Shown: positions 1,514 to 25,024 of the stretch, piece after piece
Layout: each line of letters opens with the position of its first letter
How positions within the stretch are numbered: the stretch's first letter is position 1
Virus record (IMG/VR): IMGVR_UViG_3300023174_000047
Coordinates: 1 to 64,000 of that record
Reading direction: 5' to 3' (one strand)
DNA from: a virus
Lineage: Duplodnaviria; Caudoviricetes
Length of the DNA: 64,000 nucleotides
The notes under the pieces: generated by a model
The model's input: the letters and a program-made list of their open reading frames with translations, nothing else
Told to the model about the DNA's origin: nothing
Databases searched by the model: none
Program-made: the position numbers and the translations under genes

Positions 1514-3193
1514 ATGAATAAAAATGCAATGCAGCAACCAACTTTAGCTGTTGATAAGTATAGCACTAAAAGGTGGTTGATCAATGGCAAATTGCATAGA
1601 GAAGATGGTCCCGCCGTTGAGTATGCAAATGGATATAAAGAATGGTGGTTGCATGGAGGGTTGCATAGAAAAGATGGTCCTGCCGTTGAAAATGCAAATG
1701 GAGATAAATTTTGGTATTTGAATGGCAAGGCTCATAGAGAGGATGGTCCTGCTGCTGAGTATGCTAATGGATATAAAGCATGGTATTTGCATGGCGAGTG
1801 TCATAGAGAAGATGGACCCGCTGTTGAGTATACAGATGGATATAAAGCATGGTGGTTGCATGACATGCTGCATAGAGAAGATGGACCTGCCATTGAACGT
1901 GCAGATGGAAATAAAGAATGGTACTTGCATGGCAACCAATATGAAAATGCATATGATTGGACCAAAGCATTACTCAAATTAAAAGCAATGAATGAAAATA
2001 CAATGCAGCAGCCAACTATGATTGTTGATAGTTATGGCCATAAAATATGGAAACTCAATGGCAAATATCATAGAGAAGATGGTCCTGCCATTGAATATGC
2101 AAATGGATATAAATATTGGTACTTGCATGGCATGCGGCATAGAGAAGACGGACCTGCTTATGAATCTCCTAATGGATATAAAGCATGGTATTTGAATGAC
2201 ATGCGGCATAGAGAAGATGGTCCCGCTGTTGAGTATACAGACGGATATAAAGCATGGTATTTGAATGACAACCAATATGAAAATGCATTTGAATGGAACA
2301 AGGCATTACTCAAATTAAAAGCAATGAATGAAAATACAATGCAGCAGCCAACTATGATTGTTGATGAAGGTGGCACTAAAAGATGGAAGCTCAATGGCAA
2401 ATTGCATAGAGAAGATGGACCTGCCATTGAACGTGCAGATGGAAATAAAGAATGGTATTTGCATGGAGAGTTGCATAGAAAAGATGGTCCTGCCGTTGAA
2501 TATGCTAATGGAACTAAAGAATGGTGGTTGCATGGTGAGTGTCATAGAGAAGATGGTCCTGCCGTTGAATATGCAAATGGAGATAAAGAATGGTGGTTGC
2601 ATGACATGCGGCATAGAGAAGATGGTCCTGCCATTGAACGTGCAGATGGAAATAAAGAATGGTTTTTGAATGACAAACAATATGAAAATGCATTTGAATG
2701 GAACAAGGCATTACTCAAATTAAAAGGCATCAATGATGCTTCTGAAAATGAGATCAATGATGCTTCTGAAAATGAGATCAATGATAAAGACGATGCTGTA
2801 AAAGAAACAATTGCACAACAGTTGAAGATCACAGAGTTTCCTTTTGTCATAAAGGACAAGAACAACAATCAAATATACTTTGAGAACTCAAAAGGGTATT
2901 GGCTCAAAAGAGAGTATGATGAAAAGGGCAATGAAATCCACTTTGAGAGCTCAAGTGGATTCTGGACAAAGAGTGAGTATGATGAAAAAGGCAATTTAAC
3001 ATACTTTGAGAACTCAAGTGAATACTGGATAAAAAATGAGTATGATGATAAAGGTAATATAGTTTACCATGAAAACTCATATAAAAATTCAACAAGCATC
3101 GTTGATAGACGCCCAGTCATCATTGAAATGACGTTCAAAGAAATTGCAGATAAACTCGGAATAGATGCAAAAAATCTCCGCATTAAAGAATAA
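1514..3193 (+). CDS. HREDGPA-repeat protein, copy 5: three fused repeat blocks (5+3+4 repeats) plus a C-terminal YFENS.G.W.K.EYD..GN repeat domain
   Basis: Blocks joined by KALLKLKAMNENTMQQPTMIVD; ends IEMTFKEIADKLGIDAKNLRIKE. Confidence 0.9.
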   Translation: MNKNAMQQPTLAVDKYSTKRWLINGKLHREDGPAVEYANGYKEWWLHGGLHRKDGPAVENANGDKFWYLNGKAHREDGPAAEYANGYKAWYLHGECHREDGPAVEYTDGYKAWWLHDMLHREDGPAIERADGNKEWYLHGNQYENAYDWTKALLKLKAMNENTMQQPTMIVDSYGHKIWKLNGKYHREDGPAIEYANGYKYWYLHGMRHREDGPAYESPNGYKAWYLNDMRHREDGPAVEYTDGYKAWYLNDNQYENAFEWNKALLKLKAMNENTMQQPTMIVDEGGTKRWKLNGKLHREDGPAIERADGNKEWYLHGELHRKDGPAVEYANGTKEWWLHGECHREDGPAVEYANGDKEWWLHDMRHREDGPAIERADGNKEWFLNDKQYENAFEWNKALLKLKGINDASENEINDASENEINDKDDAVKETIAQQLKITEFPFVIKDKNNNQIYFENSKGYWLKREYDEKGNEIHFESSSGFWTKSEYDEKGNLTYFENSSEYWIKNEYDDKGNIVYHENSYKNSTSIVDRRPVIIEMTFKEIADKLGIDAKNLRIKE

Positions 3194-18996: not shown

Positions 18997-20192
18997 ATAA
19001 AACTGTAAAACTTGCCCTTGAGGCACTAAACACTGGTGATGTACCGAAAAGATACTTCGATCAGTCCAAGCAACGACTTGCGTCTAGTCCACAAGATATA
19101 GAAGACATCTTGCCTAGTTCAGGTAATGAAGACAGGTTCATTGAAAATTTATCAAGTGAGGGCTATAGACTAGTAGTCAAGAAGCTTGCCAATTACTTGA
19201 ATCTATCAATTGCGGATCTAATGACTAGATATACGAGTATATATTCTTTCATTGCGGTTGTAATGCAAACCATGGAGCAAATAAAGCAAATCGAATCTGC
19301 ACACAAGCAAGAACTCGAAAAACTTGCACTTCAAGTTGTGTTTGATCTGCCAGAGTTTGCGCAATTTAAGAAGCTTTATGAACAAGGCATTTTAAAGCTT
19401 GATATTAAGCTAGGGCCAGCAGATTTGCAGAATGCAAAAACAATGGATGATATTGAAGAAGATATTGAAGAGCAGCAAGAAAATATCATTGAGAACGTTG
19501 GCATGAACATTGAAGCTGATCCAGATGGCAAGCTTAAAAGAGTATTTCATAACTACATTACTCAAGGCAATGCGGTGCATAAGAGCTTTTTGTTTAATCT
19601 TGTAAAAGAGGAATTAGACAACATTGATGAAACACTGACAGTAAAGTATGGTCTGTTTATGTCCATTGTTCATGTGTTGTATTATGGTACGCCATATGCA
19701 GCCGGTGGCATGCTCAAGGACGCAGGAATAGGTAGCAGTGAAAACTTAGAAAACGATACAATTAAAATTCGTGGTGTTGTTTTTCCTGTGCTTGTGCATG
19801 AAATTGTCAAAGGATTGTTTGAATATCTCGGAAAGGACATCTCACAGGAAGCAGAAGCTTCTGAGACTCTGGAGGGTGAATATATGCCACTCATGGCAGG
19901 CCCAGAATTGTTTAGCAAACTAAATGCAATGATTCCGCGCAACAAAATTGAGTTCCTTCCAATTATCTATAGATTCTTGCTAAAACGTTCACCTGAAGAA
20001 ATCAAGCAAGTAATTGCAAACTCACCACAAGGCAAGCAAGTTATTAATTCCATCATCGTACAGGCAGAAGCTGCTGCATCTGAAGAAGGTGAAGACTATA
20101 ATGAAGGTGGTTATGAGGACGACGGCGGCTATGAAGATGAAGGTGGCGGTGAAGAAGACAATGACCCATACAATCTTTACGGCGGCAATTAA
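18993..20192 (+). CDS. hypothetical protein (399 aa) with HExxK motif and acidic tail
   Basis: FPVLVHEIVKGLFE. Confidence 0.8.
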   Translation: MNKTVKLALEALNTGDVPKRYFDQSKQRLASSPQDIEDILPSSGNEDRFIENLSSEGYRLVVKKLANYLNLSIADLMTRYTSIYSFIAVVMQTMEQIKQIESAHKQELEKLALQVVFDLPEFAQFKKLYEQGILKLDIKLGPADLQNAKTMDDIEEDIEEQQENIIENVGMNIEADPDGKLKRVFHNYITQGNAVHKSFLFNLVKEELDNIDETLTVKYGLFMSIVHVLYYGTPYAAGGMLKDAGIGSSENLENDTIKIRGVVFPVLVHEIVKGLFEYLGKDISQEAEASETLEGEYMPLMAGPELFSKLNAMIPRNKIEFLPIIYRFLLKRSPEEIKQVIANSPQGKQVINSIIVQAEAAASEEGEDYNEGGYEDDGGYEDEGGGEEDNDPYNLYGGN

Positions 20193-20241
20193 AAGGTAAA
20201 ATAAGTTATTGAAAACTCTCCCTGTGCATATAAATAAATGC

Positions 20242-20700
20242 ACAGAAAAAACATGAACGCTAATTTCACTTGTAACCATTATAGCGGGGCATATAATATG
20301 CCACCGCGAGGTTACAAGTGGCCTGTCTGTCAGTCCTTGAAACAAAGTTAATTTTCAAAATAATTGAAAAACTAAGTTGAAAGATAAGAATAAGACGGCA
20401 TATTAAGATATATAACAAAAGCGGTTCATGACGAGGGATGACCATAACAGCCCAAGAGTTCGCAGAATGCGACGTAAAGCCAAAAGCTGACAGTGTAGAT
20501 TTACGCATATAGGTTTGTAGTGTAGCGCATTGCGCGCAAAGTTCCCTGGTGTAGCCACCGAAAACTACTAATTTAACATCTCAATGACTAACCATTTTAT
20601 AAGCATGTCTTTATCTCAAAGCTCAAAGCTCAAAGCCATCAGACTCTTAAAGTAATAAAGCCTAATCGTCGTGGTTAATCGATTGCTTGCAATTAATTTC
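20242..20700 (+). ncRNA. candidate large structured ncRNA heading the tRNA array
   Basis: ORF-free; long-range helices 20267-77/20310-20 (11 bp), 20252-58/20423-29, 20327-33/20486-92, 20472-77/20499-504; TATAAATA at 20229. Confidence 0.55.
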
Positions 20701-20705
20701 AATTA

Positions 20706-20796
20706 GGAAGAATGGCTGAGTCTGGCTTAAGGCGGTGCACTTGAAATGCGCAGAGGTCTAAAGCCTCCGTGAGTTCGAATCTCACTTCTTCCTCCA
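20706..20796 (+). tRNA. tRNA-Ser(TGA)
   Basis: Type II cloverleaf, GTGCA-CTTGAAA-TGCGC, CCA. Confidence 0.92.
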
Positions 20797-20813
20797 TTCT
20801 CTGCGAGAATAAT

Positions 20814-20888
20814 GGCCACATAGCTCAATGGTAGAGCAGCACATTTGTAATGTGCCGGTTGTTGGTTCAAGTCCGACTGTGGCCTCCA
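20814..20888 (+). tRNA. tRNA-Thr(TGT)
   Basis: GCACA-TTTGTAA-TGTGC, CCA. Confidence 0.93.
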
Positions 20889-20953
20889 CTTTAATAATAA
20901 TCATATCAATACATTCTCGTGCAGGGCAAAGATATTTTCTATAAATTTCAAAA

Positions 20954-20995
20954 GCGGTAGTAGCTCAATTGACAAGAGCGCCTTCCTTCCAAGTA
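20954..20995 (+). pseudogene. 5' half of a tRNA-Gly(TCC)
   Basis: GCGGTAG-TA-GCTC..GAGC-G-CCTTC-CTTCCAA-GTAG, no T arm or 3' acceptor strand. Confidence 0.55.
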
Positions 20996-21005
20996 GAAAA
21001 ATTTC

Positions 21006-21079
21006 GCGTCATAAGTGTTATGTCAGCACGCCGGTCTTCCAATCCGGGAGTGTGAGTTAGATTCTCACATGGCGCACCA
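21006..21079 (+). tRNA. tRNA-Gly(TCC)
   Basis: GCGTCAT/ATGGCGC acceptor, CCGGT-CTTCCAA-TCCGG, CCA. Confidence 0.85.
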
Positions 21080-21087
21080 ATTTCAAA

Positions 21088-21163
21088 CGTCCATTGGTAG
21101 AGTAGTTATTGCACTTGTTTTGGGAACAAGTATTCGTCGGTGCAAGTCCGGCATGGGCGACCA
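21088..21163 (+). tRNA. tRNA-Pro(TGG)
   Basis: C1:G72, CTTGT-TTTGGGA-ACAAG, T-loop TGCAAGT, CCA. Confidence 0.88.
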
Positions 21164-21169
21164 ATTTAT

Positions 21170-21258
21170 GGAGAGTTAACTAGCCGAGGCGCTAGAGATG
21201 TTTGCTAAACATCATGCACTTCCCTAAGAGGTGTGCGGGGCAGGACCGCAGCTCTCCT
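21170..21258 (+). tRNA. tRNA-Ser(GCT), atypical T-loop, no encoded CCA
   Basis: GATGT-TTGCTAA-ACATC, long V arm, T-loop GGCAGGA. Confidence 0.8.
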
Positions 21259-21263
21259 CTCTT

Positions 21264-21343
21264 TTGTAGAGCAGCAATGCTAGTGTGTGGCCGAAAGACT
21301 GATGGTGTGGCGTTTCGGGTAAAACCTCGCAACCATCCTACAA
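21264..21343 (+). ncRNA. candidate ~80-nt multibranched RNA
   Basis: TTGTAG/CTACAA closing stem, AGCA-GCAA-TGCT, GATGGT/ACCATC. Confidence 0.4.
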
Positions 21344-21351
21344 TTTTAAAA

Positions 21352-21440
21352 TCCCCCTTAGCTCAGTGGTAGAGCGCTCGGCTGTTAACCGGGAGGCCCT
21401 TATAAGGTACAGCGACGATCGTAACGTCGAGGAAGAGCCA
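21352..21440 (+). tRNA. tRNA-Asn(GTT) variant with 19-nt variable arm
   Basis: CTCGG-CTGTTAA-CCGGG; T arm CGACG-ATCGTAA-CGTCG; two acceptor mismatches; G73-CCA. Confidence 0.7.
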
Positions 21441-21447
21441 ATTTTAA

Positions 21448-21533
21448 ACACACTAGCAGCAAGTGGCGGTTGCGGGTTCTCTCCAAAAGAACTGTTTTTA
21501 CTAAAGTGGGTTCGATTCCTACCTAGTGTGCCA
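21448..21533 (+). tRNA. tRNA-Trp(CCA) variant with 13-nt variable region
   Basis: ACACTAG/CTAGTGT, GTTCT-CTCCAAA-AGAAC, G73-CCA. Confidence 0.8.
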
Positions 21534-21544
21534 TAAATATATAC

Positions 21545-22354
21545 ATGAACGTCATTTATAATGTTGAGCAATACAATCAAAGCAAAAGCATAAACGCTAA
21601 AATAGGTGTATTGTGTCCATGTTGTACCAATTGGTTTGAAACGACTAGACTGCTGTTACAGCGAGCGTTAAAGTCCAGCAGACTAAAATTTTGCTCTATA
21701 GAATGTGCAAATAAATTTCAATCAGAAAAAATACAGCTTGAATGTGTTTTCTGCAAACAACAAATAGAGAGAGTTGCAAGTCAACTTAAAAGAGTGAAAC
21801 ATGCATTTTGTAATCACTCTTGTGCAGCGCAATTTAACAACAGCTTAAGACCCAAAAAGTTAAAACAACTAAAGAAAGCTAAACCTATAGCAATAGTTGT
21901 TGAACACACTTGCATTAATTGTGGAAAAACATCCATTGTTTCTGCTCATGCTAGTCTCAAAAAGAAATTTTGTTCTGGCAGTTGCAGAAACGTAATTAAT
22001 AATAAAACCATAAGAGGTACACGCTCTAAAGTAGAGAAAGAGTTTGAAGTAGCAATCAAAGCAAATTTTCCAGATTTGAAGTTTAATTGCAATGACAGAC
22101 AAATTCTTGATGGTTTAGAGCTTGATTTTTACTTTCCTGAAATTAAAATAGCAATAGAATTTAACGGTATTTGGCATTTAAAACCAATACGTGGAGAAGA
22201 ACTTTTATCAAAATACAAACAAAGAGATGAACACAAAAAACGTTTATGTGAAGAAAAAAATATCAAACTTTTAGTGCTTTGTGATGAAGTTAGTTCCAAC
22301 AAATCAATTGATGAGCAAGTACACAAAGCAATTACGTTTTTAAAACAATTTTAA
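21545..22354 (+). CDS. putative free-standing homing endonuclease (multiple CxxC/treble-clef modules + Vsr/DUF559-like PD-(D/E)xK domain)
   Basis: CPCC, CS.EC, CVFC, C.HSC, CINC, CSGSC; ELDFYFPEIKIAIEFNGIWH; inserted in the tRNA array. Confidence 0.75.
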   Translation: MNVIYNVEQYNQSKSINAKIGVLCPCCTNWFETTRLLLQRALKSSRLKFCSIECANKFQSEKIQLECVFCKQQIERVASQLKRVKHAFCNHSCAAQFNNSLRPKKLKQLKKAKPIAIVVEHTCINCGKTSIVSAHASLKKKFCSGSCRNVINNKTIRGTRSKVEKEFEVAIKANFPDLKFNCNDRQILDGLELDFYFPEIKIAIEFNGIWHLKPIRGEELLSKYKQRDEHKKRLCEEKNIKLLVLCDEVSSNKSIDEQVHKAITFLKQF

Positions 22355-22356
22355 AT

Positions 22357-22431
22357 GCCTCGTTAGTGTAATGGACAGCACGTTTCGCTACGGACGAAAA
22401 AGTAGGAGTTCGAATCTTCTATGGGGTACCA
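22357..22431 (+). tRNA. tRNA-Arg(ACG)
   Basis: TTTCG-CTACGGA-CGAAA, CCA. Confidence 0.9.
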
Positions 22432-22437
22432 TTCAAT

Positions 22438-22514
22438 GCCCGTATAGCCCAATTGGTAGAGGCGTATGACTTAGGATCATAATGTTGAGGGTTCGAATCC
22501 TTCTACGGGCACCA
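22438..22514 (+). tRNA. tRNA-Leu(TAG) with short variable loop
   Basis: TATGA-CTTAGGA-TCATA, 5-nt variable loop, CCA. Confidence 0.9.
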
Positions 22515-22523
22515 ATTTTAAAT

Positions 22524-22598
22524 AGCTCCTTGGTGTAATGGTTAGCACAGAAAGTTTTGAACTTTCTAGTCCAGGTTCGAGTCCTGGGGGAGCTGCCA
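22524..22598 (+). tRNA. tRNA-Gln(TTG)
   Basis: GAAAG-TTTTGAA-CTTTC, CCA. Confidence 0.92.
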
Positions 22599-22603
22599 AA
22601 TTT

Positions 22604-22681
22604 AGATTACTCATTAACATAAAAGTAATGTAGCTGCCTTTGAAGTAGCATAAAAGGGAGCATTACCCTCTTGGGCTACCA
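22604..22681 (+). pseudogene. degenerate tRNA-Gln(TTG)-like
   Basis: GCTGC-CTTTGAA-GTAGC, T-loop AGCATTA, poorly paired acceptor, CCA. Confidence 0.6.
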
Positions 22682-22697
22682 ATTTCCTTTTAACAAA

Positions 22698-22772
22698 GAA
22701 CCTTAAGCTTTAACAGTGAAGCAAGAAGCTTTTAACTTCTAGAAAACGGAGCATTACCGTTAAGGTTCACCA
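22698..22772 (+). tRNA. tRNA-Lys(TTT), T-loop AGCATTA
   Basis: GAACCTT/AAGGTTC, AGAAG-CTTTTAA-CTTCT, CCA. Confidence 0.88.
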
Positions 22773-22824
22773 ATTTAAACAGTTGAACAACAATTATAAG
22801 AGTATATTTTGTTGTGGATAAAAA

Positions 22825-22899
22825 TCCCAGGAACGCACACGGTTGAGCGGGCTGGCTGTTAACCAGTTGAACGTGGTTCAACCCCACGCTTGGGAGCCA
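22825..22899 (+). tRNA. tRNA-Asn(GTT)
   Basis: TCCCAGG/CTTGGGA, GCTGG-CTGTTAA-CCAGT, CCA. Confidence 0.88.
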
Positions 22900-22941
22900 A
22901 ATTTCAAAATTGTAAGTAAGTGGTCTAATTTAAATTTTAAA

Positions 22942-23028
22942 CGCGGGGTAGTGTAACGGTTAACACGTCTGGCTCATAACCAGAAAACATTATTGCTTGT
23001 GCTGGTTCGAGTCCAGCTCCCGCAACCA
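22942..23028 (+). tRNA. initiator-type tRNA-fMet(CAT) with 16-nt variable region
   Basis: C1xA72 mismatch, TCTGG-CTCATAA-CCAGA, CCA. Confidence 0.82.
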
Positions 23029-23035
23029 ATTTCAT

Positions 23036-23197
23036 ATGAATAAAAATAACGAAAGCTGGAATGAACAAAGTAATCATTTGCAAAAGGCACAAGATATAAA
23101 AAATGCTGAGAAATACGGATATAGAGAAGGGTTTATTCCAATTATCTCGCTGGATTTAATTAAAAAAATCATATGTTGGTTCAAGAAGAAAAAATAA
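23036..23197 (+). CDS. small hypothetical protein (53 aa)
   Basis: ATG 23036 within the track ORF. Confidence 0.5.
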   Translation: MNKNNESWNEQSNHLQKAQDIKNAEKYGYREGFIPIISLDLIKKIICWFKKKK

Positions 23198-23205
23198 TTT
23201 TAAAT

Positions 23206-23281
23206 GCCTGAGTAACTTAGTGACTAAAGTATCTGCCCTACACGCAGACTATCGTGAGTTTGAGTCTCACCTCGGGCACCA
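23206..23281 (+). tRNA. tRNA-Val(TAC)
   Basis: TCTGC-CCTACAC-GCAGA (C33), CCA. Confidence 0.87.
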
Positions 23282-23285
23282 ATTT

Positions 23286-23425
23286 CAGAACATTCAATCA
23301 ACCGCAATTTTAGAGGTCGCTCTTGCAAGCCATGTACCTCTAACGGCTCTGATAACAGGCGCGCTTGCACGAGCCTTGCGAATGTTCTGCGAGCGCCAGC
23401 GGGCTTTGCTACCCCGTGTGGCGCT
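23286..23425 (+). ncRNA. candidate ~140-nt pseudoknotted RNA
   Basis: CAGAACATTC/GAATGTTCTG, TTAGAGGT/ACCTCTAA, GGCTC/GAGCC, loop-loop TGCAAGC/GCTTGCA, 3' hairpin AGCGCCA/TGGCGCT. Confidence 0.6.
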
Positions 23426-23483
23426 AAATTTTTAATTTTCAAATAGACGTTGATAAAGGTTAAAAATAATTTATATTAAATGT

Positions 23484-23756
23484 ATGATTACAATGTTTAA
23501 AACATTTAGAGGCACAAAAGAAGAATTAATAAATCACTTCAACAGTTTTGTATCTTTTGATAAGGACAAAAAGAATTCTAATTCATATTATGAATTAGAT
23601 GATGCACCAATTGCAAAGCAGATTGAAGAAGCAGATGTCAGCAACAAATTCAAAAATGGCGAAAGTAATGATTCATTTGGATTAATATTCCTCCTTTATA
23701 GAAATGAGACATCACTATCTGTGATAAGATCTTATATACATATTGTAGACAAATAA
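23484..23756 (+). CDS. hypothetical protein (90 aa)
   Basis: ORF track. Confidence 0.65.
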   Translation: MITMFKTFRGTKEELINHFNSFVSFDKDKKNSNSYYELDDAPIAKQIEEADVSNKFKNGESNDSFGLIFLLYRNETSLSVIRSYIHIVDK

Positions 23757-23784
23757 ATTTTGCAGCATATATCTCTACACAAAT

Positions 23785-23873
23785 GGACATAGAGCGAGCT
23801 AGTGAACGCAGTGGTCTGCAAAACCACGTGGATTAAATTCCTACGCAGAGTGCGATACTCTGTATGTCCTCCA
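23785..23873 (+). tRNA. tRNA-Cys(GCA) with type II body (18-nt variable arm)
   Basis: 3-bp D stem, GTGGT-CTGCAAA-ACCAC, V stem GTGGA/TCC-TAC, U73-CCA. Confidence 0.82.
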
Positions 23874-23902
23874 ATTCTAGTACGCGTGCGTCCCCAGCGC
23901 TT

Positions 23903-23968
23903 GGCCCGTCGCTGGTTAATCCTAGGCATCTGAGATTCCAAATTTCAGGTGAAGTTAACGGGCCGCCA
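23903..23968 (+). ncRNA. T-armless tRNA-like RNA with CCA(Trp) anticodon loop
   Basis: GGCCCGT/ACGGGCC-G-CCA; D-like stem CTGG/CTAG; 9-bp stem with TTCCAAA loop; 6-nt linker in place of the T arm. Confidence 0.6.
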
Positions 23969-24027
23969 ATTTTATTAGTTGATTTTAAATAGGAAACATA
24001 TTATAATAGTTTTGCTAAACAACAAAT

Positions 24028-24102
24028 GCCTGGTTTGTCCTAATGGATAGGACAGGCTCTTCTAAAGCTTCAATAGGGATTCGATTTCCTCACCAGGTAC
24101 CA
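24028..24102 (+). tRNA. degenerate tRNA-Arg(TCT)-like (anticodon register ambiguous, TCT vs CTA)
   Basis: AGGCT-CTTCTAA-AGCTT best pairing; weak T stem; CCA. Confidence 0.6.
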
Positions 24103-24111
24103 TTTTTAAAA

Positions 24112-24187
24112 TCCTCTCGTCGTACGAAAGTCATCACCCTCAGTTGTGATCTGAGAAAAGACGGAGCGTTACCGTCTAGAAAAATCA
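24112..24187 (+). pseudogene. pseudo-tRNA-His(GTG)
   Basis: CTCAG-TTGTGAT-CTGAG and GACGG-AGCGTTA-CCGTC intact; acceptor and CCA decayed. Confidence 0.65.
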
Positions 24188-24468
24188 TTTCATCTAGCTG
24201 TTACTATGAGGTAGAGACCAAAAGCAACACCCAATAAACCTGAAACTAGAAGTAGAATATCCATATTAACTACACAACAGCAAAAATTTCTTAAAAAAGT
24301 AGTAACTGCAAAAGAAATTCATACAATTATTTATGCTAAATGTGTCTCTAAAAAGAAGTCATGCATTACAGTTAGCGGTATAACACTCTTATAAGAGATA
24401 AGTTTTAATTTAAATTTTACCATGACATATATTTTTAGTTGATAGCCTATTGACTCATCATACATTAA

Positions 24469-24756
24469 ATGCAAATGAACAGTAAATTATATGAATCTGA
24501 TCCCGATCTCTACACTAAGATTGTAGATGATTTTGACCGCAATGAAATTCGCAGCTCTGAGCGCATCATTATTGAAGATTGGGTCGCCAAGGCTCTAATT
24601 GCAGAGACGCTGCTGAGTCTTCTCCGCAAGGACCTCATAGACATTACAGGTTTAGCAGTCATTAATGACGGGCAGGATTTTGAACCGACGTTTGCACAGT
24701 CCGCATTTCTAAAAACAGGATCTGAAGAAATGCAAAAAGAATCACCCAAAACATAA
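24469..24756 (+). CDS. hypothetical protein
   Basis: ORF track 95 aa. Confidence 0.7.
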   Translation: MQMNSKLYESDPDLYTKIVDDFDRNEIRSSERIIIEDWVAKALIAETLLSLLRKDLIDITGLAVINDGQDFEPTFAQSAFLKTGSEEMQKESPKT

Positions 24757-24763
24757 TTTAAAT

Positions 24764-24985
24764 ATGAACAACACAGATACATACATCACCCTAGAGTCAT
24801 TCATCAAAGCATGGGATAAAAAATGTAATAGTAGCTTCAATCTGAGCTACATGGACTTACCTGATATTCTTTTAATTGATGATTATTGGCATGAGTCTAT
24901 GACAAAAGAAGAAGCTGTATATGCACTCAATGACATGATGAATGCAATGAAGGAGGAATTAGGTTCTGATGATATTGATTTGTAA
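24764..24985 (+). CDS. hypothetical acidic protein
   Basis: ORF track 73 aa. Confidence 0.7.
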   Translation: MNNTDTYITLESFIKAWDKKCNSSFNLSYMDLPDILLIDDYWHESMTKEEAVYALNDMMNAMKEELGSDDIDL

Positions 24986-25024
24986 TGAATAATTTTGTAT
25001 ATTTTATTTTATCCCTCTTAACTT

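What the first reader, a model, noticed from the sequence alone, without database searches (positions are those of the whole stretch)
23876..23968. T-armless tRNA-Trp mimic with encoded CCA
Seen: perfect 7-bp acceptor GGCCCGT/ACGGGCC, then G73 and CCA, followed by the same ATTTT tract that follows several true tRNAs here. It has a 2-nt connector, a 4-bp D-like stem, G26, a 9-bp anticodon stem (two G-U) with the 7-nt loop TTCCAAA (anticodon CCA), and only 6 nt (AAGTTA) where V and T arms should be. Upstream CCAGCG (23894) can pair with CGCTGG (23910), giving an alternative pseudoknot like plant-virus tRNA-like ends. Established: CCA anticodon and G73 are TrpRS identity elements; T-armless tRNAs are known from nematode mitochondria. 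Inference: an aminoacylatable decoy, for example a bait for host anticodon nucleases or a TrpRS modulator, or a new tRNA-like class. The array also carries a conventional-looking Trp(CCA) gene.
Basis: partly seen in the sequence, partly recalled or inferred. Interest (0 to 1): 0.72.

Follow-up and report, generated by a model that had tools for sequence, protein, structure and literature searches.

The report
T-armless tRNA-Trp-like RNA in lake phages
A small group of uncultured freshwater jumbo phages keeps, inside their tRNA gene cluster, a conserved small RNA gene shaped like a tryptophan tRNA with no T arm; its shape is maintained by selection, but what it does is untested.

Summary
At 23903-23968 (+) there is a 66-nt cloverleaf without a T arm: a 7-bp acceptor stem, a 2-nt connector, a 4-bp D-like stem, one base, a 9-bp stem with the 7-nt loop TTCCAAA, a 6-nt connector, then G73 and an encoded CCA.

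It is not chance and not a decayed gene:
- Seven further copies exist in related viral and metagenome contigs, one of them cut off by the end of its contig. The four phage records I could search whole each hold one significant copy.
- Two acceptor pairs and three long-stem pairs change on both sides and stay paired.
- All G-U pairs fall on the + strand.
- The body is 80-94% identical between lineages whose neighbouring true tRNA-Cys is only 57-88% identical.
- A loop that can be drawn as 7 nt, (T/C)TCCAA(A/C), is kept while its stem changes.
- A 26-30-nt GC-rich leader upstream is conserved just as strictly. It could form a pseudoknot, which the data cannot confirm or exclude.

Rfam and standard ARAGORN do not detect it. 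The three phage genomes searched for protein families encode no TrpRS, EF-Tu, CCA-adding enzyme or reverse transcriptase. All three carry a T4-type RNA ligase 1, and this phage a full T4-type Pnkp.

Best reading: a non-decoding tRNA-Trp mimic, a decoy or sponge for a protein that reads tRNA-Trp. The RNA gene is well supported; its function is inferred only.

This scan has noted other rewired phage tRNAs on other DNA, but not this one.

The parts
23873..23902 (+). Conserved GC-rich 5' leader, starting at the last A of the tRNA-Cys CCA. It contains TCTAG, the palindrome ACGCGT and CCAGCG (23894-23899).
   Evidence: Almost invariant in all 8 copies apart from a 4-nt indel and the last 2-3 nt. It stays conserved in L019, where no tRNA-Cys lies upstream. 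CCAGCG:CGCTGG and TCTAG:CTAG(A/G) are 100% pairable, but only one-sided changes occur.
23903..23909 (+). Acceptor stem, 5' strand (GGCCCGT).
   Evidence: Pairs with 23958-23964. Pairs 3 and 4 show C-G to U-A changes, one through a U-G intermediate.
23910..23926 (+). Connector CG, D-like stem CTGG/CTAG with a 6-nt loop TTAATC, then base 26 (G).
   Evidence: The stem is invariant in all copies, so covariation can neither support nor reject it. It is present in every single-sequence minimum-energy fold.
23927..23951 (+). Anticodon-type arm: a 9-layer stem and the 7-nt loop TTCCAAA (23936-23942; CCA at 23938-23940).
   Evidence: Pairs 3, 5 and 9 change on both sides. A loop (T/C)TCCAA(A/C) with U33 and A37 is kept in all copies, including the partial L024.
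23952..23957 (+). 6-nt connector AAGTTA in place of the variable region and T arm.
   Evidence: AGTTA is invariant; L025 has 5 nt.
23958..23968 (+). Acceptor 3' strand ACGGGCC, discriminator G73 and the encoded CCA.
   Evidence: G73 and CCA are invariant in all 7 complete copies. Similarity to other phages stops right after the CCA.
23969..23975 (+). AT-rich trailer ATTTTAT, as found after the true tRNAs of the array.
23785..23873 (+). Upstream tRNA-Cys(GCA), 89 nt with a long variable arm, probably transcribed together with the element.
   Evidence: ARAGORN at a lowered threshold. The alignment shows a 14-nt insertion relative to L003 and L004.
23979..24007 (+). Sigma-70-like promoter (TTGATT, 17 nt, TATAAT) directly downstream. 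This suggests the element closes a transcription unit.
   Evidence: A similar TTGAAT...TATAAT is visible in L003 and L016. This is a consensus match only.
21450..21533 (+). Four-armed tRNA-Trp(CCA) of the same array, with A1-U72 and G73; 84 nt.

Best explanation
Shown: this is a real small-RNA gene on the + strand, under purifying selection, in a small clade of uncultured freshwater jumbo phages. It has a strictly conserved 26-30-nt leader and a 66-nt body. The body folds like a tRNA that keeps the acceptor stem, G73-CCA, a D-like arm and an anticodon-type arm (a loop that can be drawn as 7 nt: Y32, U33, CCA, A37, A/C38) but has only 5-6 nt where the variable region and T arm belong.

Inferred: it is transcribed with the tRNA array, probably together with the tRNA-Cys just upstream. 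It is probably trimmed like its neighbours, to an RNA ending in the encoded CCA.

Inferred mechanism: the RNA keeps the parts read by TrpRS and by enzymes that act on anticodon loops. It lacks the arm that EF-Tu and the CCA-adding enzyme need, and that makes the tRNA elbow. So it most likely does not decode. Instead it acts as a mimic of tRNA-Trp that occupies a protein reading tRNA-Trp. The most plausible target is a host anticodon nuclease or other tRNA-directed defence (decoy or sponge). The alternative target is TrpRS itself.
For: Reality of the RNA:
- Eight copies in all: window, L002, L003, L004, L016, L019, L025 and the partial L024.
- One significant copy in each of four phage records searched with the covariance model.
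- Acceptor stem 100% paired, with 2 pairs changed on both sides. Long stem with 3 such pairs. 0/500 shuffles reach the observed percentage paired and 4/500 reach the number of double-changed pairs. Sliding the partners by one column drops pairing from 94% to 42-47%.
- Each homologue alone folds into the same structure.
- The + strand folds better than the - strand in each pair compared.
- Indels of 4 nt and 1 nt rule out a coding frame.
- The body is 80-94% identical where tRNA-Cys is 57-88% and the next 100 nt are about 50-60%.
- A Logan contig carries the element between unlike flanks, with similarity bounded at 23866 and 23969.

tRNA-Trp likeness:
- Loop (T/C)TCCAA(A/C) and G73-CCA are invariant while the stems change.
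- In E. coli and B. subtilis the major Trp identity elements are G73 and the anticodon (PMC9976931).
- The discriminators of the array's other tRNAs follow bacterial identity rules.

Non-decoding:
- No T arm, and no Rfam tRNA match even at E = 10.
- No phage EF-Tu, TrpRS or CCA-adding enzyme.
- A four-armed tRNA-Trp is present in the window, L002, L004 and L025.

Context for a decoy:
- The window's phage encodes a full T4-type Pnkp. It, G001 and G002 all encode a T4-type RNA ligase 1. In T4 these two enzymes repair tRNA cut by an anticodon nuclease (established knowledge).
- Nucleases specific for tRNA-Trp exist in bacteria: VapC25, VapC33 and VapC39 (PMC5175351).
- Phage tRNAs that neutralise tRNA-directed defences are documented (PMC11464382, PMC11555353, PMC10264068; titles and abstracts).
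Against: - There is no expression, end-mapping, aminoacylation or binding data.
- All unpaired segments are invariant, including the D-like loop, the connector and the leader. The anticodon-type loop is therefore no more conserved than the rest, which weakens any inference drawn from CCA alone.
- A pure decoy for an anticodon nuclease would not obviously need G73, a 7-bp acceptor stem or a conserved leader.
- The host and its defence systems are unknown.
- The stem is 9 layers long, so the anticodon arm of tRNA-Trp is not copied closely.
- Only 7 complete sequences from one narrow clade are available, so the covariation statistics are thin. The 500-shuffle control ignores relatedness.
Confidence: 0.4

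Rival explanations
1. The functional RNA is the whole 92-96-nt unit. The leader is not removed. Leader CCAGCG pairs with CGCTGG (tRNA positions 8-13) and stacks under the acceptor stem as an H-type pseudoknot. This gives a 13-bp helix ending in GCCA that stands in for the acceptor/T-arm helix. TCTAG pairs with CTAG(A/G) and stacks on the long stem. On this view it is a rewired, tRNA-shaped RNA comparable to plant-virus tRNA-like ends, possibly chargeable and even able to bind EF-Tu.
For: - The leader is conserved as strictly as the body, in a different upstream context too.
- Both leader helices are 100% pairable in all copies, and the only changes keep pairing: A-U to G-U and U-A to U-G.
- The most variable leader bases (CTT, CTA, CGA, ACGA) and the 4-nt indel fall in what would be loops.
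- A 3-nt loop crossing a 7-bp stem is sterically standard for H-type pseudoknots (established knowledge).
- The CCAGCG:CGCTGG duplex is worth -9.2 kcal/mol, against about -3.4 for the D-like stem it would replace.
- Earlier notes of this scan describe phage tRNA-Arg(UCU) genes whose D arm is rebuilt through a pseudoknot. Such a gene sits right after the element in L025 and L028.
Against: - No change on both sides supports either leader helix.
- The D-like stem it excludes is also invariant.
- Nested minimum-energy folds of every homologue prefer the cloverleaf plus a small leader hairpin.
- A leader attached at G1 would leave the RNA without a free 5' end at the acceptor stem.
- The leader could instead be a processing or folding signal.
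Confidence: 0.2
2. It is a processing, punctuation or stabilising element. On this view a tRNA-like fold with a CCA end marks where host tRNA-trimming enzymes cut the polycistronic transcript, or protects a 3' end, and there is no tRNA-Trp mimicry.
For: - It lies at the end of a likely transcription unit, followed by a promoter-like site.
- In L004 a gene starts 4 nt after the CCA.
- In L019 it directly follows an ORF.
- The trailer matches that of the true tRNAs.
- tRNA-like punctuation elements were proposed elsewhere in this scan (unchecked notes).
Against: - Known punctuation elements keep the acceptor/T-arm half, which RNase P and RNase Z read. This element lacks exactly that half and keeps the anticodon-type arm.
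- It does not explain the invariant loop, G73, D-like loop and connector.
- What lies downstream differs between genomes: a tRNA, a promoter or an ORF at varying distance.
Confidence: 0.15
3. It is a working tRNA-Trp without a T arm. It is charged by host TrpRS and decodes UGG on the ribosome, perhaps because it is invisible to host enzymes that target normal tRNA-Trp.
For: - It has the full bacterial Trp identity set, and canonical connector lengths: 2 nt after the acceptor stem and 1 nt before the anticodon-type arm.
- T-armless tRNAs do work in nematode mitochondria (PMC9976931).
- The same arrays hold other structurally unorthodox tRNAs.
Against: - T-armless mitochondrial tRNAs need a specialised EF-Tu (established knowledge), and none is encoded here.
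- Bacterial EF-Tu binds the T stem.
- The stem has 9 layers instead of 5.
- U8 and G18G19 are absent.
- Four of the phages with the element (window, L002, L004, L025) already carry a four-armed tRNA-Trp.
Confidence: 0.08
4. It is a decaying tRNA pseudogene, a DNA-level signal such as a protein-binding or attachment site, or part of a small ORF.
For: - Several palindromic hexamers lie in the unit: ACGCGT, CCTAGG or TCTAGA, and GTTAAC.
- ORFs of 42-69 aa overlap it.
Against: - The compensatory changes and strand-specific G-U pairs point to selection acting on an RNA.
- It is conserved better than the true tRNA beside it.
- It shows no similarity to the resident tRNA-Trp.
- Frame-breaking indels occur, and the ATG of the overlapping ORF is absent in L003 and L004.
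Confidence: 0.04

Closest known systems
T-armless mitochondrial tRNAs of nematodes (for example C. elegans and Ascaris suum mt-tRNAs; PMC9976931)
   Same: 7-bp acceptor stem, 4-bp D arm, an anticodon-type arm with a 7-nt loop, and a short loop of a few nucleotides in place of the variable region and T arm.
   Different: - This one is in a phage of bacteria, not an organelle.
- The stem under the loop has 9 layers instead of 5.
- CCA is encoded.
- A strictly conserved 26-30-nt leader is attached.
- No specialised EF-Tu partner is encoded.
- ARAGORN in mitochondrial mode does not call it on the + strand.
Phage T4 stable RNAs species 1 and 2 (rnaC, rnaD) in the T4 tRNA cluster
   Same: Non-tRNA small RNA genes sitting in line with phage tRNA genes. 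rnaD ends in ACCA and rnaC carries a T-arm-like hairpin (by eye). Their function is unknown (from memory).
   Different: No sequence or structural similarity (covariance model scores of 5 bits or less). The T4 RNAs are 119-139 nt, and no tRNA-style anticodon arm was evident by eye.
tRNA-like structures at the 3' ends of plant-virus RNAs (TYMV, BMV, TMV)
   Same: Viral RNAs that imitate a tRNA, end in CCA, carry aaRS identity elements, and use a pseudoknot to build the tRNA-like shape. Here a pseudoknot is possible but unproven.
   Different: Those are the ends of RNA genomes of eukaryotic viruses, and they keep a T-arm analogue. This is a separate small gene in a DNA phage tRNA array.
Phage tRNAs that counter tRNA-directed defences (T5 tRNA-Lys against PARIS, PMC11464382; T5 tRNA-Tyr against retron effectors, PMC11555353; anticodon-loop variants, PMC10264068)
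   Same: An RNA carried in a phage tRNA array whose proposed job is to blunt host attack on one particular tRNA.
   Different: Those are full, decoding tRNAs that replace the cleaved host tRNA. This RNA lacks an arm and would act as a mimic, not a replacement. No defence system has been linked to it.
Rewired, D-armless, pseudoknotted phage tRNA-Arg(UCU) noted earlier in this scan (e1-4040528, e1-2011694)
   Same: A non-cloverleaf tRNA-type gene in phage tRNA arrays. One sits directly downstream of this element in L025 and L028.
   Different: There the D arm is affected and the T arm is intact, and the family is widespread. Here the T arm is missing and the family is confined to one small clade.

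Membership tests
Canonical tRNA (Rfam RF00005) | Four-arm cloverleaf that scores above the family threshold. | tested here: not met
   No RF00005 match over 23873-23968 even at E = 10, while 11 neighbouring regions match, 10 of them above the gathering score. ARAGORN in standard mode and at 80% threshold is silent there.
Canonical tRNA (Rfam RF00005) | T arm with a TTCRA loop; U8; G18G19 in the D loop. | tested here: not met
   Only AAGTTA lies between the long stem and the acceptor 3' strand. Position 8 is C, and the D-like loop TTAATC has no GG.
Canonical tRNA (Rfam RF00005) | 7-bp acceptor stem, discriminator and CCA; 7-nt anticodon loop with U33 and a purine at 37. | tested here: met
   These features hold in all complete copies.
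T-armless mitochondrial tRNA | Acceptor stem, D arm, 5-bp anticodon stem, and a replacement loop of about 6-12 nt. | tested here: inconclusive
   The acceptor stem, D-like arm and a 5-6-nt replacement loop are present. The stem has 9 layers in all copies. ARAGORN -mt gives no + strand call.
T-armless mitochondrial tRNA | A dedicated EF-Tu that binds T-armless tRNAs. | tested here: not met
   No GTP_EFTU match in G000, G001 or G002.
Bacterial tRNA-Trp (identity set) | C34 C35 A36 and G73. | tested here: met
   Invariant in all copies. Identity rules are from PMC9976931.
Bacterial tRNA-Trp (identity set) | A1-U72 and G5-C68 (minor elements); actual charging by TrpRS. | not testable with these tools
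   The element has G1-C72 and C5-G68, whereas the phage's four-armed tRNA-Trp has A1-U72. Aminoacylation needs a bench assay.
Plant-virus-type tRNA-like structure | A pseudoknot that builds the aminoacyl-acceptor domain. | tested here: inconclusive
   The leader helices are pairable in all copies, but no compensatory change supports them.
T4 rnaC / rnaD | Sequence and structure homology. | tested here: not met
   Best covariance model score on the T4 tRNA region is 5 bits, E = 3.2.
tmRNA tRNA-like domain | Acceptor stem plus T arm, with no anticodon arm. | tested here: not met
   The arrangement here is the opposite: no T arm, and an anticodon-type arm present. No Rfam match.

The most novel reading that the evidence does not exclude
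This is a natural tRNA-Trp without a T arm, outside mitochondria, that bacterial TrpRS does charge. Either the conserved leader rebuilds the missing arm through a pseudoknot so that the RNA can still be used, or the charged RNA serves a non-ribosomal purpose: a Trp or TrpRS sink, or bait for a defence nuclease. Either way it would be a new structural class of phage tRNA-like RNA.
Probability: 0.2. Interest if true: 0.9.

Novelty: new variant of a known kind. Interest (0 to 1): 0.66.

Why it matters
The four-arm cloverleaf is almost universal outside animal mitochondria. A tRNA-shaped RNA that has dropped exactly the T arm, keeps the full tryptophan identity set, and is held by selection in phage genomes gives a natural test case. 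It bears on which parts of a tRNA each host enzyme needs: RNase P, TrpRS, EF-Tu and anticodon nucleases.

If it is a decoy, it adds an RNA-mimic strategy to the conflict between phages and tRNA-cleaving defences. That strategy would sit beside tRNA replacement and the Pnkp/Rnl1 repair genes found here.

If it is charged or decodes, it would be the first T-armless tRNA in a bacterial system.

It also shows that standard tRNA finders and Rfam miss conserved RNA genes inside phage tRNA arrays.

Tried and rejected
- Rfam at E = 10 over 20000-25000: nothing at the element.
- ARAGORN standard, intron mode and 80% threshold: nothing. Mitochondrial mode calls only the minus strand. I rejected that call because the G-U pairs and folding energies favour the + strand.
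- Megablast of 20500-24500 against GenBank phages: no match.
- First exact pattern in viral contigs, which required the window's own acceptor sequence: 0 hits.
- Gapped pattern in metagenome contigs: 0 hits.
- Looser pattern in viral contigs: 13 extra loci, none matched by the covariance model, so chance.
- Five metagenome loci (L021, L022, L023, L026, L027) are chance. So is one Verrucomicrobiales locus seen in three MAGs, at 9 bits and E = 2.5.
- More distant relatives L005-L015 have no copy. L011 and L015 have a small ORF after tRNA-Cys instead.
- Sequencing runs: no RNA holder was listed. Laying DNA contigs gave only near-identical copies, plus one copy in a new flanking context.
- T4 rnaC and rnaD: no similarity.
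- Reading the 7-nt loop as a T-loop (TTCRA): rejected. Position 4 is C rather than a purine, and L025 has C at position 1. The variable positions 1 and 7 (U/C and A/C) fit anticodon-loop positions 32 and 38. The hairpin also sits behind a 1-nt connector and is separated from the acceptor 3' strand by 5-6 nt.
- Coding reading: rejected because of the frame-breaking indels.
- Descent from the phage's own tRNA-Trp by deletion: no specific similarity.
- Reverse-transcriptase primer idea: no RVT_1 match in three genomes.
- The downstream P-loop kinase in L004 is not next to the element in the other genomes, so it is not a consistent partner.

Full report
**Setting**

The window is the first 64 kb of a 203,774-bp IMG/VR virus record estimated 96% complete. 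DNA runs that hold it are lake and freshwater metagenomes. Between about 20.7 and 24.1 kb lies a + strand tRNA array. ARAGORN finds 11 genes there, several more appear at a lowered threshold, and an HNH endonuclease gene sits inside it. Every tRNA in the array encodes its CCA, and most are followed by ATTT.

**The observation**

- a 7-bp acceptor stem, 23903-09 with 23958-64;
- connector CG;
- a D-like stem CTGG/CTAG with a 6-nt loop;
- G26;
- a 9-bp stem with two G-U pairs, closing the loop TTCCAAA (CCA at 23938-40);
- AAGTTA in place of the variable region and T arm;
- G73, CCA, and then ATTTTATT.

The upstream CCAGCG (23894-99) is complementary to CGCTGG (23910-15).

The 66-mer's minimum-energy fold is exactly this structure, at -26.3 kcal/mol and z = -3.27. 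None of 200 shuffles folded as well.

I wrote a permissive descriptor for 'armless cloverleaf ending in CCA'. It finds only this locus on both strands of the whole genome and nothing in ten shuffled genomes. The descriptor was written after seeing the candidate, so this is supporting evidence, not an independent test.

Rfam has no match here even at E = 10. ARAGORN misses it in standard modes. In mitochondrial mode ARAGORN calls only the complementary strand.

**Relatives**

The DUF1501 protein 1.7 kb downstream led to 14 related viral loci. Three of them contain the element. Exact-pattern scans added two more viral contigs and two metagenome contigs, one of which is cut off by the end of its contig.

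That gives eight copies: window, L002, L003, L004, L016, L019, L025 and the partial L024. A covariance model built from six of them scores all copies at 98-121 bits. It finds exactly one significant copy in each of four phage records, two of which are complete genomes with terminal repeats. More distant relatives lack the element. Two of them carry a small ORF after tRNA-Cys instead.

**Structure under selection**

Acceptor stem:
- Pair 3 is C-G in most copies and U-A in L019.
- Pair 4 is C-G, then U-G (L003, L016), then U-A (L004).

Long stem:
- Pair 3 runs U-G, U-A, C-G.
- In L025, pairs 5 and 9 change on both sides.

Statistics:
- 94% of all cells are paired, against 42-47% when the partners are slid by one column.
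- 0 of 500 shuffles reach the observed pairing, and 4 of 500 reach the number of doubly changed pairs.
- With eight related rows these numbers are indicative, not proof.

L004 and L019 use a register shifted by one in the inner three layers, with a bulged G and a U-U mismatch. There the outer inner pair is G-C in L004 and A-U in L019. In every copy a 7-nt loop (T/C)TCCAA(A/C) can be drawn on a stem of nine layers.

Other points:
- The D-like stem never varies, so covariation cannot test it.
- Every homologue folded alone gives the same three-helix structure.
- In each pair compared, the + strand folds better than the - strand, and all wobble pairs are G-U on the + strand.
- Indels of 4 nt and 1 nt exclude a coding frame.
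- The body is 80-94% identical between lineages in which the adjoining true tRNA-Cys is 57-88% identical and the next 100 nt only about 50-60%.
- In L002 the alignment shows the tRNA-Cys without its 5' acceptor strand, while the element is intact. A public lake-metagenome contig reads the same L002-type sequence just upstream.
- Another public contig carries the element, with one change, between flanks unlike the window's. Similarity there starts at 23866 and stops at 23969.

The body also shows no specific similarity to the phage's own tRNA-Trp (z = 0.37).

**The leader**

The 26-30 nt between the tRNA-Cys CCA and G1 are conserved as strictly as the body. This holds in L019 too, where an ORF rather than a tRNA lies upstream. 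The other tRNAs of the array have short AT-rich leaders.

Three pairings are possible for the leader:
- a small internal hairpin, predicted by RNAalifold;
- CCAGCG with CGCTGG;
- TCTAG with CTAG(A/G).

The last two are pairable in every copy, and the only substitutions keep pairing (A-U to G-U, U-A to U-G). No double change exists.

If CCAGCG pairs with positions 8-13 while the acceptor stem is formed, the result is an H-type pseudoknot with a 3-nt first loop. It would give a 13-bp coaxial helix ending in GCCA, which could stand in for the acceptor/T-arm helix. Energetically this is plausible: -9.2 kcal/mol for that duplex, against about -3.4 for the D-like stem it replaces.

I cannot decide between the cloverleaf and the pseudoknot with the present sequences. 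I list the pseudoknot as the main structural rival.

**What it resembles**

- The connector lengths (2 nt, then 1 nt) and the loop pattern (Y32, U33, CCA, A37, A/C38) are those of the 5' half and anticodon arm of a tRNA.
- G73 with a CCA anticodon is the major identity set for bacterial TrpRS (PMC9976931).
- The array's other tRNAs obey bacterial discriminator rules: G73 in Trp, Asn and Gln, and U73 in Cys.
- I considered reading the loop as a T-loop and rejected it (see Tried and rejected).
- All unpaired segments are invariant, not only the CCA loop. The RNA probably makes many specific contacts, so the anticodon alone should not be over-read.

**Function (inferred)**

- G000, G001 and G002 encode no TrpRS, CCA-adding enzyme, EF-Tu or reverse transcriptase.
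- The window, L002, L004 and L025 each already have a four-armed tRNA-Trp.
- Bacterial EF-Tu binds the T stem, and T-armless mitochondrial tRNAs need a special EF-Tu (established knowledge; PMC9976931 for the tRNAs). A decoding role is therefore unlikely.
- Punctuation elements normally keep the acceptor/T-arm half, which is exactly what is missing here.
- The design keeps what TrpRS and enzymes acting on the anticodon loop read, and discards what the translation factors read.
- The window's phage carries a full T4-type Pnkp (AAA_33 plus HAD_PNKP), and all three genomes carry an Rnl1-type ligase. In T4 these two enzymes repair tRNA cut by an anticodon nuclease. This suggests, but does not show, that attack on tRNA matters for these phages.
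- Nucleases specific for tRNA-Trp exist (PMC5175351), and phage tRNAs that defeat tRNA-directed defences are documented.

My best reading is therefore a non-decoding mimic of tRNA-Trp, acting as a decoy or sponge. My confidence in the mechanism is about 0.4. My confidence that this is a genuine, selected, structured RNA gene is about 0.85-0.9.

**Comparison with known systems**

It works most like a viral tRNA mimic. Its secondary structure looks most like the T-armless mitochondrial tRNAs. It fails membership of canonical tRNA, of the mitochondrial class (9-layer stem, no partner EF-Tu), of T4 rnaC/rnaD and of the tmRNA tRNA-like domain.

Literature searches for armless or T-armless tRNAs in phages returned only reviews of mitochondrial tRNAs and general tRNA or RNase P reviews.

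Earlier notes of this scan describe other rewired phage tRNAs on other DNA: D-armless Arg(UCU), minihelices, and a tRNA without an anticodon arm. None describes this element.

**Verdict**

This is a new variant of a known kind (tRNA-like RNA), confined to a small clade, with its function open.

Noticed in passing
window 23785-23873; L003 1755-1829; L004 5786-5860; L002 about 2925-3007: In the window and L002, tRNA-Cys(GCA) carries a 14-nt insertion that forms a long variable arm. L003 and L004 lack the insertion, and their Cys genes, like those of L016 and L025, are a normal 75 nt. In L002 the same gene lacks its 5' acceptor strand, so it looks broken; a public contig (run X3) reads the same L002-type sequence just upstream.
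   Followed up: partly
L028 about 1650-1745 (G002) and L025 3792-3883: Right after the element, these relatives carry a tRNA-Arg(TCT)-like gene with no ordinary D arm: only 5 nt lie between positions 8-9 and the anticodon stem. It also has about 24 extra nt before a normal T arm. This matches the 'pseudoknotted D-armless phage tRNA-Arg(UCU)' described in earlier notes of this scan. The window instead has an ordinary tRNA-Arg(TCT) at 24028-24102.
   Followed up: partly
G000 about 179,033-179,908 (-) and about 186,927-188,201 (+), outside the window (loci L053, L035): The phage encodes a T4-type polynucleotide kinase-phosphatase (AAA_33 plus HAD_PNKP, 291 aa) and a T4 Rnl1-type RNA ligase (424 aa). 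This is the classical pair that repairs cleaved tRNA. The ligase is also present in G001 and G002.
   Followed up: partly
window 21352-21440, 21450-21533, 22942-23028: tRNA-Asn (89 nt), tRNA-Trp (84 nt) and tRNA-Met (87 nt) have unusually long variable regions for class I tRNAs. The Trp gene scores better against the Rfam tRNA-Sec model (29.6 bits) than against the tRNA model.
   Followed up: no
window 22595-22899, 21170-21259, 23206-23281: Further weak tRNA-like genes appear only at lowered ARAGORN thresholds or in Rfam: Tyr, Lys, a second Asn, Ser(GCT) and Val. The array therefore holds more tRNA-type genes than the default call shows.
   Followed up: no
L004 5957-6385: In the 224.7-kb relative, a 142-aa P-loop kinase (weak matches to APS_kinase, AAA_33 and KTI12) starts 4 nt after the element's CCA. 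It is not next to the element in the other genomes.
   Followed up: partly
L050 6456-6474 (also L051, L052, L022, L026): A Verrucomicrobiales intergenic stretch shares the 19-nt string from the element's D-like region. The covariance model scores it at 9 bits (E = 2.5), and the number of hits is within chance expectation for the collection size. I treat it as coincidence.
   Followed up: yes
window 21545-22354: An HNH or homing-endonuclease-like ORF (269 aa) is inserted between tRNA genes of the array.
   Followed up: no
window 23873-23968: The 96-nt unit contains three palindromic hexamers: ACGCGT, CCTAGG (TCTAGA in relatives) and GTTAAC. The D-like loop (UAAU) and the connector (GUUA) are mutually complementary, so they could form a tertiary loop-loop contact or mediate dimerisation. 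Both are invariant, so this cannot be tested by covariation.
   Followed up: no
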